Assembly: GCA_034780895.1 (NCBI GenBank)
Contig: JAUZTB010000084.1
Location: 5,044,715-5,108,714 of the forward strand
Source: Rhynchobatus australiae
Taxonomy: Eukaryota
Length of the DNA: 64,000 nt
Reading direction: 5' to 3'
The first letter of the stretch is position 1. Each line of letters starts with the position of its first letter. Under the pieces are notes generated by a model, which did no database searches, had not been told where the DNA came from, and saw only the letters and a list, made by a program, of their open reading frames with translations. Both the position numbers and the translations under genes were made by a program. This document shows positions 33,829 to 63,400 of the stretch, piece after piece.

Positions 33829-33946
33829 TCATGCCTTGTGGATGGAGTATTTCCCTTTCTGAAGCTGGCTGACGTACAACTTGGTTTTGCTGCCATCTGA
33901 ACGACGAAGCCAGACCTCTCCCGTGCTGACAGCAGTGATCATTGCA
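33829..33946 (-). CDS. BRMS1: BRMS1 last coding exon ([38 protein letters not shown])
   Basis: ctcttccag| acceptor, TGA stop, 118 nt; [17 protein letters not shown] motif of BRMS1L/SUDS3. Confidence 0.93.
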
Positions 33947-35262
33947 CTGGAAGAGGAGAAAGAATAGTGTCTGTCAGAAAGATGCCAAATGAGCTGATCC
34001 AGGTCTATCTAACACACCGATAGCTTGCTGTGCAAGTCCCAATTGGGTGGTTCTACCACCTGATCTCAGTGGGGCAGAAGGAGCTCTGTCCAATCCTGAA
34101 ATGTTCCAACAGAAGATGTACTCACCAGGAAGACATTGGGTTCAAGTGCCCAGTCCTGGTGGACCACAGCTCCATGAGCAGCAGAAGCTGCTACCCTCCA
34201 GAATCACTGTGCACAGTATCATCAGGGGGTGCAAATATGGATGACATCAAAATCAACCACTTGGACCCTCACTCAATGTTCAGAAGCTGGACATTGATCA
34301 GGAACAGGAAGACTGGCTAGCTTTTGTCTAGCCCAGAGATACTATTCCCAATTAATGTACTCCTATTGCCTCAGCGAGGAGGAGATAGAAGAGCAAACAG
34401 AAACACAAGGTGCCTGATTCACTCTATACTGTCTACATCCATGGCACTGTGCCAAGCTGTGCTGTAGATGGTGCACATGGCAATGTATCCAAAAGGTAGC
34501 CAGCCTAACGCTGTGCAGCTCCGAGTTTTAATAACATACTGCTAATGTAAAGACCACTACTAGAAAGAGAACAATTAGGTTGAGGAAGGGCATCTAAAAA
34601 CAAAGATTTACAAGGTGGAGTTGAGGGAGAGGAGTTCCACGGAGTGATTGAGAAAAGCTAATGGTGTACTGAAAAGGGGAATGCTGAGTGTACAGCTTTG
34701 TGCAATTGGAATGGTTGTTATGATGGGCTAACAGGAACTTGTCCACAAACATACAGCCAGAGACTCAGGAATTGTTAGTGAGGGATTTTCACCAAGGCAG
34801 AACATGAATACTGTAAGAAAGAAATGGGTCTCAAGTTTAGGCCTGGTTGTGATAAAGGCCTCCTATGATTGTTGAGCAAGGGCTAATCTCTCTGGTGAAC
34901 AGTTGGGAGCTTCAATACACACTATGGAGTGCTGAGTTAGTTAATTTCTTACTGGGTAAGAATATATCAATATATTCATTAAGTCCTAAATTAGCAAGGG
35001 TGTGCAATCAGCCAAGATTCCTGTACTGAATGCAATCCAGGTGAATCCTGGAGAAACACATGAAATGCTGCCTGAGTGAGTAAATTAGGCAAGTACAGGG
35101 TCGTTCTCAGCTCCCTCCCATGCTGATGGTGTGCGGCCTCACACTAGCAGATTTGGGCAAGATAACAGGAAACATTCCTCAAACCTATGCGTTCACAGTG
35201 TGGGTGGGAAGTGTGAGAGAGGGAAATACATAATCACTAATTCTGAGTGTAAGAATGCTTAC

Positions 35263-35389
35263 TGTGAGGGCATTTCATCCTTCATCTCCAGTACAATGCT
35301 CTGCCCTTTGGAGTACCAGTCTCCCTCGTAGAACAGTCTGCCATCTTCGCACTTGGCCATGTATAAATGCTTCTCCTGTTTAGGCAGCA
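35263..35389 (-). CDS. BRMS1: BRMS1 exon, C-terminal domain part 1 (VLPKQEKHLYMAKCEDGRLFYEGDWYSKGQSIVLEMKDEMPS)
   Basis: aacag|...CA|gtaagc, 127 nt, phase 1 to 2; similar to the BRMS1L/SUDS3 C-terminus. Confidence 0.9.
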
Positions 35390-36299
35390 CTGTTTGGGGC
35401 AGGGTTCGGTGAAGAAAAATCAGACCTGTTACAAACTCTTTATTTTTTACTTTGCAATCTTAGATTCCTTTCCATTTTTGTAAAATCCACTTTCACTACC
35501 ATGCAAAATTAGCAACCATTACAACCGAGCATTGTCTAGTGGATAGCTCCCTCCTGTCATAAGTCAGAGTTCTGTCTGTTTGAGTCCTACTCTGGGAATC
35601 TGGAGCAGCACCGAGGAAATATGGCTCCGTTGAAGGTGACATCATTCAGCTGAATACCAAAGACCCCACAACACCACCGCAAAACGGTGCAGAAGAGTTT
35701 TCCCAGGTATCTGAGCCTAACAATTTTCCCCTTAACCACCACCATGCCAAAATAATGATTGCAAGGCTTGTGTTTGTGTGGTTTTGCCCTTTGCCAACAT
35801 TTTAAAGGTACTTGAATGTGAAGTTCTTCGGAACACTTCTGAGATGTGATGGATGGCTTCCTTACCACAGACTGAAGTGATGTTCGAAATTCCCAGAGCC
35901 TAGGCTGAGCTCAATAGGCTTTTACATTTACTGAGACATACAATGGGGAGTGGCAGTGATGAATGAGCAAATCCTCTGACTGCACGTGGATGTCAGGTGG
36001 AAACTGCGTCACATTTGGCTCCGATGCTACTTTATCTTTTGCTTATATTCCACCGCTCACTGCTTGGGCCCCCACACAGAGGAATGTTACTGAGCGGGGC
36101 ATGGAGTGTGTTGAAGGGCATATCTGCCCAGTTGGCACGACGGTCACTTAGGAAATCAATATGCCCTTTATTCAGCACAATGTCAGTCTCAACCACTAAG
36201 ACAGGTGAAATGGGAAATGGAATCTGGTCGGTCTTTTTTCATGATGTGTCATTGATAATAATGACAATAAACTGCAGGCTACATGGTGATATTGATTAA

Positions 36300-37050
36300 A
36301 TGGATAAAATAGGCAGAATAAGTGGTAAATGGAACTTAATCCTGAAAAGTACGAGGTGATGCATTCTGGGAGCACTAATAAAGTTAGAATGTACACAAAT
36401 GAATGGCAGGGTCCTTGGAAGTACTGAAGAACAGAGGGACTTTGGTGTACAAGTCCAAGGATTCCTGAAGGAGACAGCACAGGTAAATAAGGTGGTTAAG
36501 ACAGCATATGAAATACTTGCCTTCATTAGCCATGGCATAGAATTTAAGAGCAGGGAGGTTATGGTACAGCTCTATAAAACATTGGTTAGACTACAGCTGT
36601 CCTCAGTTCTGGTTGCCACACAAGAAGGATGTGATTGTACTGGAGAAAGTGCAGAGAATATTCACCAGGATGTTGCAAAGTGTTTCAACTAAGAAAGACT
36701 GTATAGGCTGGGTTTTGGTTTGCTTGAGGCAGTGGAGACTGAGTGGGGGTAGGGGGGTGGGTGGGGAATAGATAGGGTAGACAATAGGAAACTCTTACCA
36801 CAGTGGAGGTGTCTAAAACTAGAGAACACAGGTTTAGGTTAAGGGGTAAGAGAATATCAGAGTGGTGTTGAAATCTGGAACACTCTGCCTGTGTGAGTGG
36901 TGAAGATAGGTATATTTAAGAAGTATCTAGCACTTGAATTGCCAAGGCATTGAAGGCTATAGATCAAGTGTTGGTAAATGGGATTAGTACAGATGGGCCC
37001 TTGATGCATACACTTGGTTGAAGTGCTTGCTTCTGAGCTGTACGACTACA
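36300..37050 (+). mobile_element. CR1 LINE fragment
   Basis: QRDFGVQV..LAFISHGIEFKSREVMVQLYKTLVR. Confidence 0.85.
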
Positions 37051-37264
37051 TGAAAGAAAAATTCTTTATTAGATATGGTGTGGGAACAACTTACCTGAGT
37101 CACTTAAGAGCTGTGCTGAAACTTTGGCCTTCTTACCATGGGTTGCTTCAGAACCTGCACCTAGGAAATAAACATATGGAGGCTAAATTATCTTGAATTA
37201 CTACCCTGATACTGAATGGTCAATTTCAGGCATTGACCGAGGCCCACTGACACCCTTCACTTAC

Positions 37265-37304
37265 CATCTGATTTTCTTTTTTGCTGACTGATGACTGCTT
37301 TCGC
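37265..37304 (-). CDS. BRMS1: BRMS1 exon (AKAVISQQKRKSD), NLS-like
   Basis: ccttgcag|...G|gtaagt, 40 nt; matches human BRMS1 ARAAVSPQKRKSD as recalled. Confidence 0.9.
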
Positions 37305-38448
37305 CTGCAAGGCAAAGAGGAGATTTACCATGTACCCACGACTTCATTTCATTCATCAGCACTGACAGACATACATCAAACACCCTCATCAGTTTCTCAG
37401 CAGGTTACAGCCACGACTGGGGTCCAACCCAGATCAAACAATCCACCAACTTAAGAAACCATAACCTGCCTTCTGCATTGTACCAATAAATCTAGCCCTC
37501 ACTCTATCTTTCCGAATTGTCTGTCTGAGAGTAAGGGAAAGCAAAATGATGCCATGGAGATCCAGTTTTCCCACAACTCACTAAGCCAGAAAAGGTCTCC
37601 TATTAAGACCAAAATGCTTTGAAAAGAGCAATGCAATTCTTGCTTCATTAACACAGTCAGCAGTCAAATAGTAACTGCTAATTCCTGGTCACCAGCTATA
37701 CCACTCTGGCTTCATACATCATCTTATAGAAAGAAACCTTCAGGCAAGTGCAGATTAGATACTGGAGTACTGCAATGAAGTTGTGGCAGAAGTCAAAAAT
37801 CTCTAGGCTCCTCACATCATCATGTATGGTGATAGTTGAGAATTTGTGTGGAAATACTGCAGGAAGGCAAGTTGCAGCAATCAAGGCTCAGCAGCAGCAG
37901 CACCTGGTAAATGCAAGTTCACCCATACCCCATGAATCAGTTAAGTCTTTGTCCTTGTCAAAGTATCTGTGACCTCTTTAAAAAAAACAAGGAAGGAAGC
38001 TGATCCTGCTGACTTAATGCTTGCAAGATAAAAAACAGGAAATGCTGGAAATACTCATGTCAGGCAACGTGTGGGGAACAGAGTTTTTTGCTTCAGATTG
38101 TTGACATTTCTTCAAAAGAAACAGTGAGCGCTGAGAATTGGAGAACGTAAGGAACTGGAGAGGCCTAGGAAAATTAGGACTGTAAGGGATTGAGAGAGCA
38201 CAGGATGTTGGAGTGGCAACTTAGTGAGGGCTTGGGACTAGAGAGAATATGGATTACCAAAACCACAAAGGGAGCAAACAAATCAAGTGGGAATAAGTGG
38301 AACAATGTGATCAAATAAGTGAGCATAAGAAAAAAGGAAAATGCTTGTGAGATTGTGAAGCACATGTAGGGAGCAAAAAACAAATGTTGATGGGGAGCAA
38401 GTGGGGAGGCTGTTATTTGAAGATAAAGTGGTTAGTAGCAGATTTTAC

Positions 38449-38513
38449 CTTTTTGATAGCAGCCCAGTCCTCCAAAATATCAATATCTCGTAACATGTAG
38501 ACAATATAAGGAC
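38449..38513 (-). CDS. BRMS1: BRMS1 exon (GPYIVYMLRDIDILEDWAAIKK), Sin3-interaction region, preceded by a U12-type intron
   Basis: Highly conserved motif; donor AAG|gtaaa; acceptor context TTCCTTAAC-ATTGGTGTAT|GT CCT; 65 nt. Confidence 0.93.
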
Positions 38514-38523
38514 ATACACCAAT

Positions 38524-38532
38524 GTTAAGGAA
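38524..38532 (-). other. U12 (minor spliceosome) branch-point sequence TTCCTTAAC
   Basis: Exact U12 branch consensus 10 nt upstream of the exon at 38513; no polypyrimidine tract or AG nearby. Confidence 0.88.
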
Positions 38533-39689
38533 TGAAGTCCATAGAAGGTTATGCCTTTATGTCTAGGAATCCTTTTGTTTTACCACACCCTGAAAAAGAG
38601 ACGTGCCCAGGAAAAGAGGACAAGTAACACCCCAAAGAATGCCAGTGAGGATCAAAATTATACCCAACCTCACATCTCAGAATTAATTAGATTCATACTT
38701 GTACTTGTTTTGCAGAAAAATAGGGCACCCAATTTGTACAAAGGAAGATGCCACTAACAACATCAGATTGCACGATGTTAACCTAGTTTTGGAAAGTGAA
38801 AGATAGTGGAGGTCAAGAAGTATGGCAAGATACTCAAAAGACTGGTGAGTAGACTGTCCTTTGATACTGAAGCAGAGGAAGTGTTAATAGTAATATGCAG
38901 GGGAAAGAGTTGAGGGTATCAGATGCAATATATATCCAATGCCACAACCAAAACTAAACTGTAGGGAACTAGAATAGCATTGACTAGCCAGCAAACATAA
39001 GGGATTGTAGAAGAGCAAGAGATGATTAGTTTGTCAGCTTTACCTGCCCCTCTGCTGGGAGAGCTTTACTCTGAGATACACCGTCATTTAATTTTTAAAA
39101 TAAATTGGAAGTTTTTGCCTGCAGGACACTAATTACTGCTACTATCAGAGAGGTCCAACACACAGTGTAGAAATTATTATTCATATCCCATCTTTTGACA
39201 CCTCTGACTTCCCAAAGTGCTTCACAGCCAATGAAATGCTTGTGAAGTGTAGCCATTGTTGCACTGTGGGGAAAATATGTCCAGTCAGTTTACATATAGC
39301 AGGCTCCCACAGCAATACAGTAATGTCTACACAGTGTTTGAGTTATACAAACTCAGGGAAAAGCATTAGCAAGGACAGCACTGGGGAGCTCCATTGTTCT
39401 TCTTCCAGTAGGGGCTGTAAGGAATTTTTATAACTACCCTAGAGGGCAGGCAGAGTTCAGTATTTCATCAGGAAGGTGGCACATTACACCCTCTCTCCTA
39501 ACGTGCTGCAAGGATTGCCCTTGATGATGTGCTCAAACACTGCACGAGAGGAGGATTGAATCTACCACCTCACTCAACTGACATGTAAAGTCTAACACAT
39601 AATTAATTATCAATTTTTCCAATCACATGAACAGACACAATCTCTGGTTCAAAAACATGGGCACTGCTGCTCCCAAGCTAACCAAGTTT

Positions 39690-41350
39690 GGTCTGTTCTC
39701 AAATTGTCTAAATATGCAAAGATGGTCTGAGGACCCTTCATTTCTTCCTTGTACAGACTCAACCACTCCTCCCCTCCACCACACTCATTCATTCTTTAAA
39801 TGAACAACAACTCCACTCACTTTCCCAAAAAGTCAAAGCTGTAGTTATAAGATTTCACATGGGCCCAAGCTATGCCCGTCTCTTTGTGGAATACATTGAA
39901 CTCTTGTTTGTCCTATTATGGCCCTCTCCCTCGACTCTTTATCCATTACATTAATATTCCCTGATTAGTACAGAACTCAAAAACGTCATCACCTTTCCGC
40001 CAACTTTCACCCTGCTCTCACTTTCACATGGTCCATATCTGATTGCTCCCCTCCTTAAAATTTCTCTCTTTATCTGTCAGGGGATAGGTTGGCTCCCAAT
40101 ATCCATTACAAATCCGCAGACTCCCACAGCTCTCTCCTCTGCTCTTGGTCCCACCCTGTCTTCTGTACNNNNNNNNNNNNNNNNNNNNNNNNNNNNNNNN
40201 NNNNNNNNNNNNNNNNNNNNNNNNNNNNNNNNNNNNNNNNNNNNNNNNNNNNNNNNNNNNNNNNNNNNNNNNNNNNNNNNNNNNNNNNNNNNNNNNNNNN
40301 NNNNNNNNNNNNNNNNNNNNNNNNNNNNNNNNNNNNNNNNNNNNNNNNNNNNNNNNNNNNNNNNNNNNNNNNNNNNNNNNNNNNNNNNNNNNNNNNNNNN
40401 NNNNNNNNNNNNNNNNNNNNNNNNNNNNNNNNNNNNNNNNNNNNNNNNNNNNNNNNNNNNNNNNNNNNNNNNNNNNNNNNNNNNNNNNNNNNNNNNNNNN
40501 NNNNNNNNNNNNNNNNNNNNNNNNNNNNNNNNNNNNNNNNNNNNNNNNNNNNNNNNNNNNNNNNNNNNNNNNNNNNNNNNNNNNNNNNNNNNNNNNNNNN
40601 NNNNNNNNNNNNNNNNNNNNNNNNNNNNNNNNNNNNNNNNNNNNNNNNNNNNNNNNNNNNNNNNNNNNNNNNNNNNNNNNNNNNNNNNNNNNNNNNNNNN
40701 NNNNNNNNNNNNNNNNNNNNNNNNNNNNNNNNNNNNNNNNNNNNNNNNNNNNNNNNNNNNNNNNNNNNNNNNNNNNNNNNNNNNNNNNNNNNNNNNNNNN
40801 NNNNNNNNNNNNNNNNNNNNNNNNNNNNNNNNNNNNNNNNNNNNNNNNNNNNNNNNNNNNNNNNNNNNNNNNNNNNNNNNNNNNNNNNNNNNNNNNNNNN
40901 NNNNNNNNNNNNNNNNNNNNNNNNNNNNNNNNNNNNNNNNNNNNNNNNNNNNNNNNNNNNNNNNNNNNNNNNNNNNNNNNNNNNNNNNNNNNNNNNNNNN
41001 NNNNNNNNNNNNNNNNNNNNNNNNNNNNNNNNNNNNNNNNNNNNNNNNNNNNNNNNNNNNNNNNNNNNNNNNNNNNNNNNNNNNNNNNNNNNNNNNNNNN
41101 NNNNNNNNNNNNNNNNNNNNNNNNNNNNNNNNNNNNNNNNNNNNNNNNNNNNNNAACTCTAACCCCCCGACCACAGTTCCTGCGAGAACCCCACTTTGTT
41201 CTCCCATTTTCTCCATCTCTGACATTTCTGCTCTGATGGAGACTTTCCACACCAGTACCTTTGAGGTGTCTTCCTTTTTCCCTAACCATACCTTCCTCTC
41301 TGCTAGTAACTGGCAGGGCCTCAAACTATGTCTCCTTGATTTCCATACAC
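39690..41350 (+). mobile_element. Penelope-like retroelement RT remnant spanning an N gap
   Basis: MGPSYARLFVEYIE and downstream decayed PLE RT-like segments on both sides of gap 40169-41154. Confidence 0.6.
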
Positions 41351-42662
41351 TTTAGAGAGACAATGGGGAAGAGATTAACAGGGAGCTGGATAGTACAGGG
41401 AAGAAATAACTTAAGGGAAGTTTTCCAGCTGTGGGATACTAGGGCTGTGAAATTGCATGGGTGTTGTAGAAGCTTATAATATGCAATTGTACATACATGC
41501 ATGCATTACATACTGTACATAGCATTTACAAAAAATACAGATTTGTCCCAGCTGCTCCCTGCCATATTTCTGCTTCACAAGATCTCACTCCCACCCCACT
41601 TCATCTCATCAGCCTACCTTTCTATTCCCTTAAACACATTTAGCTTACTTCTTATGGCACCAAGTTCCATATGGTGTGCAGATTATTGGGGGATAATATG
41701 ATAATCCAGAGCCACACATTTATGGATCTTCACAAATCGACTACTACGTGACCTGGAGTTATACTCAAAAACCACTGANNNNNNNNNNNNNNNNNNNNNN
41801 NNNNNNNNNNNNNNNNNNNNNNNNNNNNNNNNNNNNNNNNNNNNNNNNNNNNNNNNNNNNNNNNNNNNNNNNNNNNNNNNNNNNNNNNNNNNNNNNNNNN
41901 NNNNNNNNNNNNNNNNNNNNNNNNNNNNNNNNNNNNNNNNNNNNNNNNNNNNNNNNNNNNNNNNNNNNNNNNNNNNNNNNNNNNNNNNNNNNNNNNNNNN
42001 NNNACAGAAAACTATAACCCCCACTCACCCACTGGCCCCAAAAAATGACTAAATGTCCCATGAATATCTTGGACTTCATCCCTCCACTCCCATAACATTC
42101 CTGGTATTATTGCATCAAGATGCTGGTGTGTACCTGCCTCTTTGGCCAGAGTTAAGCTTTAACTGGAAACAGTGATTCAGGATTAGCCATTGGAGCTACA
42201 AAACTAGCTTCAATTCACATCTTCCAATCTTTTTCTGGTCTTTCCCAGAATTCCATACCCAAGGATCAGCCCTTCTCTGCTCTGGAGCATGGCTTTTATG
42301 CCTCAGAGCCCAGACCAGAGCAGAGAGGTGTACAAGATGTACAGTAACTTCCATTCTCCTGTTCTCAGCAATGTTGGAGCTGGTACCAGCTATGGTGCTC
42401 TGCTGGGTGAGAAAATAATCACAACAGTTGTAATCTGACCATGCATGTTCAGACTTTGGAGGAGTTTTGGAGGATTTGATTTCTGATGAACACCAATCCC
42501 TCCGCTGCACTACCTTTCCAGCACCCACTGAAGAGTGATCACATGGTCAAAATAGCAGAGTGTGTTAACAGATATGGACCCCCTACCCAGTCACTGCCAA
42601 CATCCTTAACTTAGGAGAGAAAAGATGCGTAGAATAGGAAGCAACTGCATTTGTACACTGAC

Positions 42663-42759
42663 CAGAGGTGATGTCTATACTTTGCTTGTCCTCCTCCAGT
42701 CGCTGAATTCTTTCCAACAGCTCATTCTGCATATTATCAAACAGCAGCAGCTTCTCACT
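42663..42759 (-). CDS. BRMS1: BRMS1 exon (SEKLLLFDNMQNELLERIQRLEEDKQSIDITS), coiled coil 2
   Basis: ttcag|...G|gtcag, 97 nt. Confidence 0.94.
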
Positions 42760-43357
42760 CTGAATCCACCGTGGAAATAGAGAAAGAAATTAGTCCTTTA
42801 TAAAGCAATTCGGACAGACAGCAGCTTTAAATACAGCCTCAATTGCTGGCAGAATAACTCAGTTGATTATATGGTGTGTGTGCATGTGTAGGGGACCATC
42901 CAGGTACCATCAGAAGGCAAGTGAAAGGTACTGACTTCTAGAGTAAGAGGGACAGTTGAACCTATTCTGGACCTGATCTTCATAATGTTGTTCTTTGTAC
43001 ATAAGCTGTCAGCCCCAACTCCTTTATGTGCAGTATTGTTTCATTTCTCCAAGCATTTTTTGATATTGTATTACATTGATGATGCAGAGGGAATGCAATC
43101 TAATGATGTACAGGTGGCAGCCAGCAATTGTGAAACTTCCCAGAACACAGGAGGAGGTGGAGCAGAGTGCGTTTGTTGTTGGAAGAAGAAGAAAAAAGGC
43201 AAAGTAAAATAAAAACTGAAATGTGTAATTGTCAGATGAGTTTGGGACTTCCATTTAGCTTGATCAATAAATCTTTCTCATCAATACCCTAAATAAAACA
43301 ACAATAATAAAATAGAAGAGCTTGTGGGACTTCATCCCACACTCTCTATTGCCTTAC

Positions 43358-43437
43358 CTCCAGATGTTGCCGAGCTCCTTGCAGTTCACACTCATACCTA
43401 TTTCTGATTACCTCCAAACACAGATCTTTATATACAC
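43358..43437 (-). CDS. BRMS1: BRMS1 exon (GVYKDLCLEVIRNRYECELQGARQHLE)
   Basis: gatag|...GAG|gtaag, 80 nt. Confidence 0.94.
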
Positions 43438-44039
43438 CTATCAGATGCAAAATTAGGACAAGGTTAATCTCTCCAAAAGGTGGCATGCTCAGCCCGCACA
43501 ATCACCCCAACTAACTCCATAACTCACCATCCAGCTCCGTCAATGTGTAGGGCAGTACATCTTGCACTGCCCTTCTGTCATTTGCAGAAATCCACCTGCA
43601 ATAGGCATGATGCAAATTGTCCAATTCCCACAGCATTCTCCAATTTAAGGAGTAATAGTGACAGGAGCAATTATTCAGTTTACAGAAGGACTCACTTGCA
43701 ACACTTGTACCACCTTTATGATATTCTGATTACACAGGTTGCAGTTTTCCATTTCCCCTTTTGTCATGAATATGCCCAAGTCTTGTTAGGGTTTACAGAA
43801 ATCAGTCCCTCATATCAGGTGATGCATTATTCCCTATGGTTCCAAACTTGGAGATAAAGCAGGGAGAATTACAACACAAGTGGACTAGAAACAAAATGTA
43901 AGCTAAGAATATGTAACCCATTGGAGAGGACAGAGGTGGGGTGGAGAGGGGTGGAGCCAGAGAACAAAAACAAATAAATTACAGAGTTAAGTGCCTGTAT
44001 ATCCAGTATTTAGTTTTTTTGTGGCAGGACAGAATGAGG

Positions 44040-45480
44040 CAGGCAGTGCAAGAATCCTCTGGAAGGTGTAAAAGTGGTCAAATATGGTATATTTTATAGG
44101 TAACCAAGTATAGTGGTGGAATGGTGACTAAGGTACAAAATTGAAAAGTAATTACTCAGGAGATACAAGAACTATGGATTAGTGACTATATGCAACTTTA
44201 ATTACCTGCATATTGAATGGGCTGGTGAATGTGTTGTGAGTGGAGGAATCTTGAAGGTGTTCAGGAATTTTTTTCTTGATCAATATGCTTCCTGTTCAAT
44301 AAGAAAGGAGATATTGCTGGATGGAGTTCTGGGGAATGAAATGGATTAAGCAAAGAATGTTACATTCAGGAAAAGTCCTGGGGATATCATATGGTTTAGT
44401 TATGGAGAAAGACAGAGAACGTTCCAGATTACGAATGGAGGGGGCTAAGTTCAGGCAACTGACAAGGGGTCTGGCCCAGGCAAACTGAAGTTAAAATCTA
44501 AAAGACAAAAATGTAATGCAACAATGGATGGTCTTTACAGGGGGAAAATCGCTCACGCGCTGACTAAGTATGATGGGTAAAAGATGAGATGGATCCTAGC
44601 TTGCAGATAAGTGAGACTTGAAATTACAATTTTGGTTGGCCACAATATTCCATTTCTCCAAAGAAACAGGACTGATGCCAAAGGACAAGGGATCATAAAT
44701 ACCCTTGTTCAAAAAAGGGATGAATGATAAATGTGGCAATTACAGGCCAGTCACTTTAACAACTGTGGAAGGGAAGCTTTCATAAATAATAATTTGTGGA
44801 AAACTAACTATAAATAAGCATGGACTAGCAAAGGAAAGCAGGCAGAAATGTTATAAATGACAAACCATGCCTGAATGTTTAATTTAAATTTTTTGATGGG
44901 TAGCAAGGAGTGTGTTGAGGTCAGTGCACTTGGTGTTCAGTATTTGATGAAGCACCACAAAACAGACTTATTAGCAAATCAAAATAACTATGGATAACAA
45001 GTAGCATCTGAGAAAAAATTGGTTTAGGATTAGGGGAACAGAATTTGGAATGTTTTTTGGACTGAAGGGAGATACATAATGGTGTTTCTCAAGACCTGCA
45101 CTATTTGCGATATACATTAATAGAGACTTGGAGACTTGGGGTGGGTATACAAGGGATAAATTTTAAAAATATGCAGGTGACACAAAACTTGGAAGTAAGT
45201 GTCCAATAAGAAAGACAATAAAAGATTTCAAGTGGATGTGGACAAGCTAATGGAACGGGCAGATACATGGCAGATAAAATTCTACATTAAAAGATTGGGT
45301 AGGCAGAAAAACCATGCACATTAAATATTACAGTTTTAAAGTAGGTGTAAAAACTAGATATACGAGAATGACTCTGCATAAACTTTGAAGATGGCAGTAT
45401 TGGTGAAGCATACACAATCCTGGGCTTTACAAACACAGTATAGAGCAGAGGAGCTAAGAAGTTAACTAAACTACTCTGCC
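44040..45480 (+). mobile_element. Old, heavily decayed CR1 ORF2 remnant
   Basis: Residual motifs (GNYRPVTLT; YAGDTKLG) with many indels. Confidence 0.6.
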
Positions 45481-45956
45481 CCAGCTCGGGAATATTGCGA
45501 AAGAGGATGGGAAAAATGCAACTGTTCTTTAAAGACACCAATACAGACTCAATGATTTTAAGCACCGTAACAATGGCACACTTTTTGTCACAATTTTTGA
45601 TTACACATGTTCTGTTTACAAGTAACCATTTAAGTTTGCTATGTTATAACACAGTTAAAGGTTCTAGCCATCACGTNNNNNNNNNNNNNNNNNNNNNNNN
45701 NNNNNNNNNNNNNNNNNNNNNNNNNNNNNNNNNNNNNNNNNNNNNNNNNNNNNNNNNNNNNNNNNNNNNNNNNNNNCACGTAGTTCCATGTAATGTATTC
45801 CTGAAAATTCCTTCCATGATGTCATCAGCTTAACATTAAAAAAAGGCATCAACTGGACTTGTACCTAAAATTACCCTCCCATCCCACTGACACACAGTAC
45901 ACTACAGACACCCCCATATAGTGGGTGTGAGGTTAACTCAATGATACCTCCATTAC

Positions 45957-46084
45957 CTGCTACCTCAGTTCTGATTTTCATGTTCTTCTGCAGGACAGCC
46001 AGGGGCTCCAAGTACTCAGTTGCTTTCCCTGCGATCACCTCGTCCAGTTTGGCTTCCACCTGGCTCAGTCTCTCTTTGTACAGT
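45957..46084 (-). CDS. BRMS1: BRMS1 exon ([43 protein letters not shown])
   Basis: ttttacag|...G|gtaat, 128 nt. Confidence 0.94.
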
Positions 46085-46567
46085 CTGTAAAAGAGAAGCT
46101 GTCGATTTTACCCTCTGTTCTCAATTTACTTGCTCAGAGCAAATCCTCCGCCAACCTTTACCGAACAACCTGTTAAGCTGCAGAAAGCATTTCTTTGCTG
46201 GTTTTTCGCCCTCCTTTCCTAAAGATGCTGACTCTCGTCGGGGAGTAAATTCCGCCCTCCAGTGCCTGGGCCAAGCAGCCATTCTTCGTGCATGTGCGTA
46301 GTTAGTTAGTGCTGGCTGGCTATTCAACTGTGGGCAGCATCACAGCCCATTATGAGTTTGTCCTTACCCAATCTAAAGGGAATTCCACTTTTAAAACACG
46401 ATCCAGTGACTCCTGTATGTGTGCCACACCCTAGCCTCACACATCAAGAATGGTCCCATGGGCAATGATCTAGAGAGCGTCGAAGAGTCTGTGCTCAGCA
46501 GGAAGCAATGCCTTCAGGAGAGGAGAAAACCAGAAGACATTTATTCAAAAGAAACTAATCAGCGTAC

Positions 46568-46658
46568 TGTTCTTTCAGATCCGTGAACTGCTTCTCCAGG
46601 TCTGACATCTCATCCAAGCATTCAGTGCGACGTCGCTCACAGTCCTCATCGTCCATCT
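46568..46658 (-). CDS. BRMS1: BRMS1 exon ([31 protein letters not shown]), coiled coil 1
   Basis: tttctag|...CA|gtacg, 91 nt, phase-consistent. Confidence 0.94.
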
Positions 46659-47554
46659 CTAGAAAGTGGAACATAGCCAAGATTAGACATCAGAATAAAG
46701 CAACCAGTTAGCTGCCTTACTATCTTGGTGAAATTACTTACAGTTTACAGCACAGAAACAGGTTACTTTGCCTAAGAGAGGTACACAACCCTCTGCTCAC
46801 TTTACCTGACCCTATCTCCTTATCCTTCTCCCTCTAATGTACATAACCACCTTTTCAATGCATCAACATCTTTAATAGAAATAACGAGTGAAGTGCAATT
46901 GCTGCTACATACATAGCCATTCTGTACCACTAACTTTCAGAGACAGCTGTGAGATAAGTGTCCAGTTACCTTTTTCTTGTTGATTGGTTGCGGGGGGTGG
47001 TGGAGAAGGAGGAGGAGGAGGAGGAGGAAGGGGGAGAAACAAGACTGCTCGTCTCAGAACACTGGGACAAAGGCCTTACTCTTCTTCCAAGAGCCCCATG
47101 GAATCAGTGGTAAATAGGGTTTGAATCAATATCTTTCTGTATCATCCAAATTATGTTCAAGCCCTGAAATGAACATCAAACAGATACGCACAAGAGGGCA
47201 TGTAATGACAGAGAACAGGCACATANNNNNNNNNNNNNNNNNNNNNNNNNNNNNNNNNNCACTTCCGATGCTCTGCTTCAGTTTGCAATGGGTAAAAATC
47301 TTCCTGTACTACCCTTCCAATTCCAAAATTGCTCATAATGGCCTCATTATTATGCCTTTAAAAATTTCAATCTCTGAGATATAAATATAACAGAAAAACA
47401 CCAATGATGAATGGAAAATGGAAAGTATTTTTTCAAGCAATAATTGTTTAGTTTGTTCATATCTCCCTGTTCTCTATAGTTTTAATTCCATGCCTTAAGC
47501 GTACACACACACAACCACTCAGGCTCGCACACAGGTACATCTGCACTTGCTGAC

Positions 47555-47705
47555 CTGAGCTGTCCTCGCCCTCCTCCTCAGATGCGGAGGTACTGCCACT
47601 GTCTTCATCCGAGCTTTCCTCATTCTCTGGGGAATCCTGCTCCATTTCCTCATCAGCCTTCTCCTCGTCCTTTTCTTTGTCTCTCTGCGGCTGCTGCCCA
47701 GGCAT
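47555..47705 (-). CDS. BRMS1: BRMS1 first coding exon (MPGQQPQRDKEK...EGEDSS), acidic N-terminus
   Basis: Acceptor ttttgaag|GACA-ATG (exon starts at 47709), donor G|gtcag; 151 coding nt. Confidence 0.9.
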
Positions 47706-60490: not shown

Positions 60491-63400
60491 CTGAAAATGA
60501 AGGAGTGAAAAAGACATCGTATTTTTTCCAGGAGTAAAACACATTCTCAGTTGTGAAGGAAGATTTTACACAAATGAATATCTAGGGAACAAATATTAGC
60601 ATCTGTTGTGTATATTATAGGAAATAGGCAACTGTGTGTATATTACAGGGAACAGCAGCTCCCTTTCGTGTTTAATGGAAATAATAGACACTCTCCTCTT
60701 TAGGTAAAAGTAATTAAGTTCTAAACTTCATAATAGAAAACTCTTCCATTGAGGGACAGTAAGTTATTTAACCATGATTAGCAGCACAGCCCCACCACAG
60801 TCATATATTTTCTTCCTGAATTACGGTTAAGTAATAATGAGCCTTGAACCTCTGCTGAGAAGAGTAACTGCATCAAACTGATTTTTCACTATCTGACCTC
60901 TGCATATTGGGGAGTTGTGGTTCATCGTGATATTTCCCAATCAGAGAGTACAATGCACATCTCTCTGCACTCACTGATTTGTTGAACTCTCACTCACTCA
61001 ACTTTGGGGTAATGCTTGATACTGCCTTTAGGGGGAGCCCTGGTACAAGAGGACAGTGCAATCTCCCAAGGTGTCCTTAGACCGATGGATTCAAACCTAT
61101 CCAGGAAAACAGATGAAAATATTTTCAACCTCCCATCCCCCACTTTCCACTTGCCCTCCAATTTTCTGCCCATGGTCATGAAGATAGCAACTTGCTACGT
61201 GTCCTCTGTTCACTTGCCCAAATATATATCAGACAAATCCACAATATATTTCTAGTTTTATCCTTATCTCAGTCCATCTACTGCCGACGCCTTTCATCCT
61301 TGCTTTCATTGTCTCTAAACTAACTATTCGAACTGCATGCCTCTCCATTTTCCCACCTATTACTCTCTAGAAAATGTCAGCTCAGTTCCTTAGTATCTAA
61401 ACTCCCAAAAATCCCTTTTGTCTAGCACCCCCAACCTTGCTGACTTGCAGTCTGGACTGACAGCACCTCCCTTCTAATATAACCAACTACAGAAGGATAC
61501 ATAGAAAGGTGAGGGGGGAGGAAGATAAAGGTGATTGGAGTGAGAAATAACAGGTCTAGAATGCAGACAATGGCAGCTCAATTATGCTTAGCTCTCCCAT
61601 AATTTCACACCACAACCTTTGCATCTTGCTCAGCTCTCTAAAAAATCTTTAAAGCCTAGCTTCTTTCCATAGCACTTTTCATGACCAAGCATTCCAAACT
61701 TTTTTTCAGTTAAATGAACACTTAATGATGTGCACTCAGTATTATCAGATAGGAAAGATAGCAAGCCCATTTGCACACAGCAAGCTCCCAAAAACGTGAT
61801 TGTGGACACGGGTATTCACCCTTTGAATCTATCTGGCAGTAACTCTTGCCCTTGCTCATACCCTCTCATTGTTTTTCTCCAATGCATCCAACCACTGTCC
61901 TTTTCTAACCATGCCCCCCAGCCACATAACATGTGCAATTTGCCATCAGTGACAGATTTTAAGGAACACCCTGCAGGTTTAGGGAGGGAATTCCAGAGTT
62001 TAGAGCCTAAGTGGTTGAAGACACGGTTGGCCACTCTGGAGTGACAGAAATCGGGGACGATTGACAATCCAGACTTGGAGCAGTGCAGATTACAGAGATA
62101 ATGGTACGGCCAAGGTCTGATTTGAAAACCAAGATGGGTATTTTTTAAATAGTAGGGACCAGAAGTCTTTCTAGGTCAGTGAGCATAGTGTGAGCTAGAA
62201 ACAGCACATTGAAGGAAATCAGCAAAATATGCATTAATTTTACTGCCCAGCCAGAATTCGAGGCGGACAAACCAAGGCTCTGCTAAAGAAAGAAACGGGA
62301 TAGCACGAGCAGATTTGAACAAAAGCCAGCACTGTCCCTTTAATTAGCAGAGCTGGCCTCCCACCCCAAACCCCAGCCTCCATCTGCAGTTTGGCCTGGA
62401 GCGTCACAAGAACCATGTTACTGTCCGTTAGGCTGACACCGTCTGGTGGTGATTGTTGGGGGGGGGGAGGGGGCTGCCCAAGCCGGCACACGCTGCCAGG
62501 TCAGAGGTCGGAGCCTGAAGTGTGGCAAAAACTGTCGCAAGTGAATGAGTCTGTCCTCCGGGGACCTAACCCAGCGCGTGGCTCATCTCCCAAAGGCTTG
62601 CAGCCTGCAGTCTGTTACTGAACCTCGCCAACAATGGGCCAGCTCCTTTTAGCCAGTGTGGGTTGGGGTGGGGGATGGGAGATGGATTGAGGCTTCAGCT
62701 ACATCCATTAGTCTTAAACCCCTACCGCTTGTATTAAAGCTGCCAAGTATCCAATCGAAGCAGACAATGACTTCTGAGTGCTTTACATTTCTCATCTGAA
62801 GTGAAACCTGCCCCTTTTATTTTTGTTCGGCATCCCAGACTCTGTCAAATGGTGCCAATGAAACTTAAATCTGCATAACACAGTCACTGTACAGAGTAGT
62901 CCACGCTCACTGCTATGCTTCAAGGCAGCAACATAGAGGGAAGGCGGCATATTTTATCCTTTGCCAAAAGAGTCCCATTCTTAACAACTTGCATTTTTAC
63001 AGGGTGTCTTTAAACATTTGTATAACATTTAAAGCTACCTCTGAACCACATACAGAAATATTAGAGCAGGAAACCAAAAGTAAGTCTTAAGTCAAAGGTG
63101 GTGATGAGATTTTGGGAGAGTATTTATAGAGCGGACAGCATAGTTTCCGAATCACAGCCCTTTGAAGTTGAGCGATCTGGATGAAGGTTTAGGGAGGACT
63201 TCATAGTTTTAAAGGCTTTGGACCAAATAAATAATGATGATCTGTTTCTAGTCGCAAGAGGCTTGGGAATCAGAGAACATGGATTTAAGGTGATTAACAA
63301 AAGAATTGGAATAAAGAGACTTTTGCAGAGTGAGTTGTGGTGATATGGAATCCATTAGTTGAAAAGGAGGCAGATTTGAGTATCTTTCAAAAAGGATTTG

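What the first reader, a model, noticed from the sequence alone, without database searches (positions are those of the whole stretch)
38505..38535. U12-type intron in BRMS1 ending in AT instead of AC/AG, probably via CpG decay at the splice junction
Seen: on the - strand the sequence reads TTCCTTAAC-ATTGGTGTAT|GT CCT TAT ATT GTC (G-P-Y-I-V). This is a perfect U12 branch point 10 nt before the exon, with no pyrimidine tract. The two nearest upstream AGs add 41 or 49 nt and break the frame, so the only frame-preserving 3' splice site near the branch point is AT. Known: U12 introns are mostly GT-AG or AT-AC, and AT-AT termini are rare but documented. Inference: an ancestral AC|GT junction contains a CpG, and methyl-C deamination gives exactly AT|GT. 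This may be a lineage-specific AT-AC to AT-AT shift that lowers splicing efficiency and throttles BRMS1.
Basis: partly seen in the sequence, partly recalled or inferred. Interest (0 to 1): 0.72.

Follow-up and report, generated by a model that had tools for sequence, protein, structure and literature searches.

The report
Ray minor intron ending in AT
In the BRMS1 gene of what is likely a ray, a rare-class intron ends in AT instead of AC and a relative's spliced contigs join exactly there; it likely arose from one C-to-T change, and such endings are already known in human genes.

Summary
A U12 branch point (38532-38524, - strand) lies 10 nt before the BRMS1 exon 38513-38449, and the intron ends in AT. 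It is not an assembly error: contigs of organisms A, B, C and E show no change at the AT, and spliced contigs of organism E join exactly at 38513. The ancestral state was likely AT-AC: the paralog BRMS1L in this genome, human BRMS1L and most invertebrate loci are AT-AC, and shark and turtle gene models decode to a terminal C. The donor lies in an assembly gap and was not seen. AT-AT is therefore inferred, and GT-AT is not excluded (human BRMS1 is GT-AG). CpG decay is plausible: 5 of 8 human AT-AT introns precede G, against 13 of 66 sampled AT-AC introns (p=0.018). Throttling of BRMS1 found no support. AT-AT is a known minor-intron subtype, with AT-AC/AT-AT switches documented between human and mouse. 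Verdict: real, new member of a known kind, modest interest.

The parts
38524..38532 (-). U12-type branch point sequence TTCCTTAAC; branch A 11-12 nt from the intron end
   Evidence: single copy in the window; no change listed here in organisms B, C, D, E
38514..38515 (-). 3' terminal dinucleotide AT of the minor intron (-3 base T here, C in organisms D and E)
   Evidence: spliced contigs of organism E leave the genome right after 38513
38449..38513 (-). BRMS1 coding exon 7 (G/PYIVYMLRDIDILEDWAAIKK), phase-1 start, ordinary GT donor after it
   Evidence: tblastn, splice sites, spliced contigs cover 38448-38513
41779..42003 (-). Assembly gap, one of two candidate places (the other is 40169-41154) for the missing coding exon 6 (about 93 nt) and the U12 donor
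   Evidence: gaps; residues 183-213 of relatives have no match in the window or G000; placement is inference
33829..47705 (-). BRMS1 coding region: 10 visible exons plus one missing; all other visible intron ends are GT or AG
   Evidence: 313 of 318 residues identical to Pristis pectinata P0001, 193 of 318 to skate BRMS1L P0017
38590..38591 (-). AG behind a pyrimidine tract, 76 nt upstream of the exon; possible cryptic major-class acceptor, frame-breaking; use not seen

Best explanation
This is the 3' end of an ancient minor-spliceosome intron of BRMS1 that ends in AT, likely an AT-AT intron derived from AT-AC by one C-to-T change, probably methyl-CpG decay across the AC|GT junction, and likely tolerated rather than regulatory. 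Shown: branch point, spacing, terminal AT, its presence in several related organisms, and exon joining at this exact base in organism E. From established knowledge: the minor spliceosome sets the 3' splice site mainly by distance from the branch point (optimum 11-13 nt), and an intron starting with A accepts any last base (AT-AN). Inferred: the donor is ATATCCTT; the change happened within or at the base of the rays, after the split from sharks; only the C could decay, because G>A on the other strand would turn the conserved Gly codon into Asp.
For: Junction at 38513 in X13 and X14, whose loose end codes K-K-K-K-A-A-T-V-S of the upstream exon; no such joined contig in DNA run X6 of the same organism. 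Paralog BRMS1L in G000 has a 367-nt AT-AC intron at the same codon with AC|GT. Human BRMS1L is AT-AC. Of 10 metagenome loci, 9 are BRMS1-like: 6 end in AC (AT donor seen in 4), 3 are AT-AA, none GT-AG. Gene models of two sharks read TVARPY and six turtle models read PLTCPSRPY; the Arg requires a terminal C (or A), never T or G. Window CpG observed/expected is 0.29. Human U12 AT-AT introns are followed by G in 5 of 8 cases, against 13 of 66 sampled AT-AC introns, Fisher p=0.018.
Against: The donor was never seen in this species or any ray. Human BRMS1, the ortholog, is U12 GT-AG, and a paddlefish model reads VSGILS, which decodes to a GT donor, so this intron does switch. The shark and turtle states come from decoding mis-annotated proteins, not from DNA. 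Three of 8 human AT-AT introns precede A, and the invertebrate AT-AA ends need no CpG, so the terminal base also changes without deamination. The G test is post hoc, small, and hand-tallied on 67 of the file's 228 AT_AC rows. The RNA evidence is from a relative, one study, contigs only, and the tool guessed the run type (X14 flagged 'probably DNA').
Confidence: 0.7

Rival explanations
1. The intron is GT-AT: either a GT-AG minor intron that lost its last G, or an intermediate on the path AT-AC > AT-AT > GT-AT > GT-AG.
For: Human BRMS1 is U12 GT-AG; the paddlefish model suggests a GT donor; GT-AT is a natural class with 7 human rows.
Against: The nearest outgroup with information (two sharks) and turtles decode to a terminal C, which implies an AT donor because GT-AC is disfavoured (PMC3584512). 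GT-AT would need a second change.
Confidence: 0.12
2. The AT end weakens splicing and acts as a selected throttle on BRMS1 in rays.
For: Non-canonical termini often splice with reduced efficiency (PMC3584512); the AT is kept across several related organisms.
Against: Basal retention of human AT-AT introns is not higher: median 0.074 (n=8) against 0.137 for AT-AC (n=67 rows), Mann-Whitney p=0.17 (non-random sample). Retention of T needs no selection, because T>C reversion is slow. The same intron tolerates AA in invertebrates.
Confidence: 0.1
3. This species uses another acceptor, such as the in-frame AG 27 nt into the exon or the pyrimidine-tract AG 76 nt upstream; the AT is not the main site.
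For: No RNA of this species was available; its -3 base is T where organisms D and E have C; both AGs exist.
Against: Organism E has the same AT and AGs and joins at 38513. The first 27 exon nt still encode the conserved GPYIVYMLR. The upstream AGs break the frame.
Confidence: 0.05
4. The T is a sequencing or assembly error, or a private allele.
For: The assembly is fragmented, with 15 gaps in the window.
Against: The same base is seen in contigs of organisms B, C and E from other studies.
Confidence: 0.01

Closest known systems
Human U12-type AT-AT introns (UBR3, ERCC5, KCMF1, SMC3, IK, SRSF12, TCTN1, HNRNPLL; PMC8280824 supplement file 1)
   Same: U12 branch point close to a terminal AT; five of them are also followed by G.
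   Different: Their AT donors are on record; here the donor is unseen. BRMS1 is not among them.
AT-AC/AT-AT switches between human and mouse: ERCC5, Gpaa1, Zc3hdc6, Slc9a8 (PMC1557818 Table 3)
   Same: A single terminal change between orthologs, as inferred here between sharks and rays.
   Different: Different gene and lineage; 'CpG' has 0 occurrences in that paper's main text.
Minor intron of human BRMS1 (GT-AG) and BRMS1L (AT-AC) (PMC8280824 supplements)
   Same: Same intron position (V-S-G/P-Y, phase 1) and same class.
   Different: The terminus here is AT, a state not found in print for this family in my searches.

Membership tests
U12-type (minor) intron | Conserved 5' splice site RTATCCTT | tested here: inconclusive
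   Donor falls in an assembly gap; not found in G000. Present in the paralog and invertebrate orthologs.
U12-type (minor) intron | Branch point TCCTTRAC | tested here: met
   TTCCTTAAC at 38532-38524.
U12-type (minor) intron | Branch point to 3' splice site distance about 11-13 nt, no pyrimidine tract between | tested here: met
   Branch A 11-12 nt from the end; spacer ATTGGTGTAT; optimum from PMC3584512.
U12-type (minor) intron | Position orthologous to known minor introns | tested here: met
   Same junction as human BRMS1 and BRMS1L, the G000 paralog and 9 metagenome loci.
U12-type (minor) intron | Removal depends on the U11/U12/U6atac machinery | not testable with these tools
   Needs knockdown. 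Human BRMS1 and BRMS1L introns are retained in ZRSR2-mutant cells.
AT-AT subtype (A-type, AT-AN) | 3' terminal AT used as acceptor | tested here: met
   DNA in organisms A, B, C, E; junction in organism E. No RNA for the window's species.
AT-AT subtype (A-type, AT-AN) | 5' terminal AT | tested here: inconclusive
   Not seen; inferred from outgroups.
BRMS1 (not BRMS1L) | Falls outside the BRMS1L clade; separate BRMS1L locus in the genome | tested here: met
   BRMS1L clade 100/99 excludes the chondrichthyan group; deeper forks are open (25 chosen rows, Pristis P0001 standing in for the window gene). Second locus on C1.

The most novel reading that the evidence does not exclude
Methyl-CpG decay at AC|G junctions is a main source of AT-AT minor introns in vertebrates. 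The single BRMS1 intron then forms a natural series (AT-AC in sharks and turtles, xT-AT in rays, AT-AA in two invertebrate lineages, GT-AG in human, likely major-class in teleosts) while its paralog stays AT-AC. Rays would show the first step of a subtype-switch route through a terminal T, an alternative to the usual AT-AG intermediate.
Probability: 0.3. Interest if true: 0.5.

Novelty: new member of a known kind. Interest (0 to 1): 0.3.

Why it matters
It adds a clade-wide AT-ending minor intron with spliced-contig support in a cartilaginous fish, in a gene family whose intron changes state repeatedly. That makes it a useful natural test of how AT-AC introns become GT-AG. The small human tally suggests a mutational cause (CpG) for AT-AT introns that can be tested at once on public minor-intron tables. 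It also warns annotators: this junction is mis-called in several shark and turtle gene models. It does not reveal new splicing chemistry or a shown regulatory role.

Tried and rejected
Finding the donor: Pfam PF08598 search of G000 blank, controls also blank; whole protein found neither exon 6 nor exon 8; a 32-residue piece found only the paralog; two patterns gave 0 matches. No RNA holder listed for the window's species. Contig depths in X13 (35.2 spliced, 3.5 unspliced across the acceptor) were not used as a splicing rate, since contigs cannot show RNA level and the unspliced piece may be DNA or pre-mRNA. A search for ray gene models reading through the intron end found none among 87 hits; of 240 proteins held, 220 read the normal junction, 18 an odd one and 2 lack it. 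L019 was dropped as unrelated (GC 0.63, no BRMS1 continuation). A processed pseudogene as source of the joined contigs was rejected, because DNA run X6 of the same organism gave only the intron-bearing contig. Supplements of PMC4176328: no BRMS1 or AT-AT hit in 3 files, file 1 not searched. Dietrich 2005 is not held and is known only through PMC4176328's citing passage. A bacterial promoter scan was irrelevant. Earlier scan findings: nothing bearing.

Full report
Observation. On the - strand TTCCTTAAC lies at 38532-38524, followed by 10 nt and an exon from 38513 to 38449 that codes (G)PYIVYMLRDIDILEDWAAIKK; the base pair before the exon is AT. The motif occurs once in 121,612 strand-bases of the window.

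Gene. Ten exons between 47705 and 33829 match BRMS1: 313 of 318 residues are identical to Pristis pectinata, 297 to Leucoraja and 193 to skate BRMS1L, so the genome is likely a ray's. A tree of 25 chosen proteins keeps the chondrichthyan group out of a well-supported BRMS1L clade, with deeper forks open, and G000 has a separate BRMS1L locus on C1. The exon upstream of the intron (residues 183-213) is absent from the window and was not found in G000; it likely lies in gap 41779-42003 or 40169-41154. The donor is therefore unseen.

Is the T real and used? Of 17 listed runs I laid 7. X1 matches all 801 nt but may be the assembly's source. X2 (organism B), X3 (C) and X6 (E) show no change at 38514-38515. 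X4 (D) shows none in the 40 of 56 rows printed. D and E differ at 38516, so their intron ends CAT. In X13 and X14 (organism E, one study, guessed to be RNA) one contig each covers 38448-38513 exactly and then continues with letters coding the upstream exon on one side and the next exon on the other. The DNA run X6 of the same organism has only the intron-bearing contig. So in a relative about 6% divergent the AT is the acceptor. No RNA was listed for the window's own species.

Ancestral state. The paralog BRMS1L in G000 has a 367-nt intron at the same codon with an ATATCCTT donor, the same branch point and AC|GT. In the supplements of PMC8280824, human BRMS1L and SUDS3 are AT-AC and human BRMS1 is U12 GT-AG. 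A pattern scan of metagenome contigs, which fixed the branch point and exon but not the terminus, gave 10 loci. Nine are BRMS1-like, likely invertebrate host DNA: six end in AC (AT donor seen in L020, L021, L025, L026; not in L024, L027) and three are AT-AA (L022 and L023 alike, L028). Some are repeats of one organism, so this is about three AC and two AA lineages. Among 240 proteins held, models of two sharks (Mustelus, 4 isoforms; Cetorhinus) read TVARPY and six turtle models read PLTCPSRPY. These look like shifted junctions that translate the last intron bases; the Arg is possible only with a terminal C, or A if the exon began GA or GG, never T or G. The Ala matches the GCA seen in organisms D and E. 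This decoding is inference from annotations. Against a simple picture, a paddlefish model reads VSGILS, which decodes to a GT donor. Parsimony gives AT-AC in the shark-ray ancestor and one C>T change in rays; I put AT-AT at about 85% and GT-AT at about 12%.

Mechanism. Minor introns lack a pyrimidine tract and set the acceptor by distance from the branch point, optimum 11-13 nt (PMC3584512, passages). A 5' A splices to any last base, preferring C (PMC4176328, passage citing Dietrich 2005; the original is not held). The AT here lies at that distance. AC|GT is a CpG, the window is CpG-depleted (o/e 0.29), and decay on the other strand would change Gly to Asp, so only the intron's C is free to change (inference). 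As a side test I tallied the first exon base in human U12 introns from PMC8280824 file 1: G in 5 of 8 AT-AT rows (a ninth row, in the U2 sheet, dropped) against 13 of 66 AT-AC rows (67 read of the file's 228 AT_AC rows, one duplicate acceptor dropped), p=0.018. This is small and post hoc, and 3 of 8 AT-AT introns precede A, so CpG is not required.

Throttle. In the same rows basal retention was 0.074 (median, n=8) for AT-AT and 0.137 (n=67) for AT-AC, p=0.17; the rows are ordered by disease response and are not a random sample. The review notes that non-canonical ends often splice less well, so a small cost is possible, but nothing here shows regulation.

What is known. AT-AT numbers 6 human and 6 mouse introns, with AT-AC/AT-AT switches in ERCC5, Gpaa1, Zc3hdc6 and Slc9a8 (PMC1557818, tables and passages). 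It is the second commonest non-canonical end in animals (PMC10639083, passages). Subtype switches are thought to precede conversion to the major class (PMC2831892, passages). Also seen: PMC7367187 passages, PMC3728624 one passage, PMC8280824 passages. Seven library searches (listings only) showed no paper on an AT-ending BRMS1 intron or on CpG decay as the origin of AT-AT introns. The library lacks most subscription papers, and I did not see the supplements or database of PMC10639083, which covers over 3000 genomes and may already list this intron.

Verdict. A real, spliced, clade-wide non-canonical minor-intron end; new member of a known kind. The donor and any effect on expression remain open. 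Interest 0.3.

Noticed in passing
L025, 1504, 1450, 1396 and 1342 nt upstream of the acceptor: The U12 donor motif is repeated four times at 54-nt spacing, a tandem duplication that gives three extra minor-class donors inside the intron.
   Followed up: no
L022, L023, L028: The orthologous intron is AT-AA in two apparently separate invertebrate lineages.
   Followed up: partly
proteins P0172, P0174, P0178, P0168: Teleost BRMS1 read-through models show a GTAA-like donor or a pyrimidine-rich stretch before Gly, suggesting conversion of this intron to the major class; inferred from peptides only.
   Followed up: no
window 62431-62565 (-): The translation resembles the N-terminal extension of Chiloscyllium model P0010, so a 5' exon of BRMS1 likely lies here, about 15 kb upstream of the start codon.
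   Followed up: no
window 45948-45956 (-): A second GT 9 nt into intron 3 would add three residues (G-N-G), as in Pristis isoform P0127.
   Followed up: no
window 38709-38762: A short interspersed repeat piece inside the intron, hit by several unrelated contigs in all four runs.
   Followed up: no
proteins P0132, P0133, P0134, P0191, P0192: Shark models with TVARPY may be mis-annotations or real in-frame major-class splicing a few bases upstream at both ends; Mustelus has both forms annotated.
   Followed up: partly
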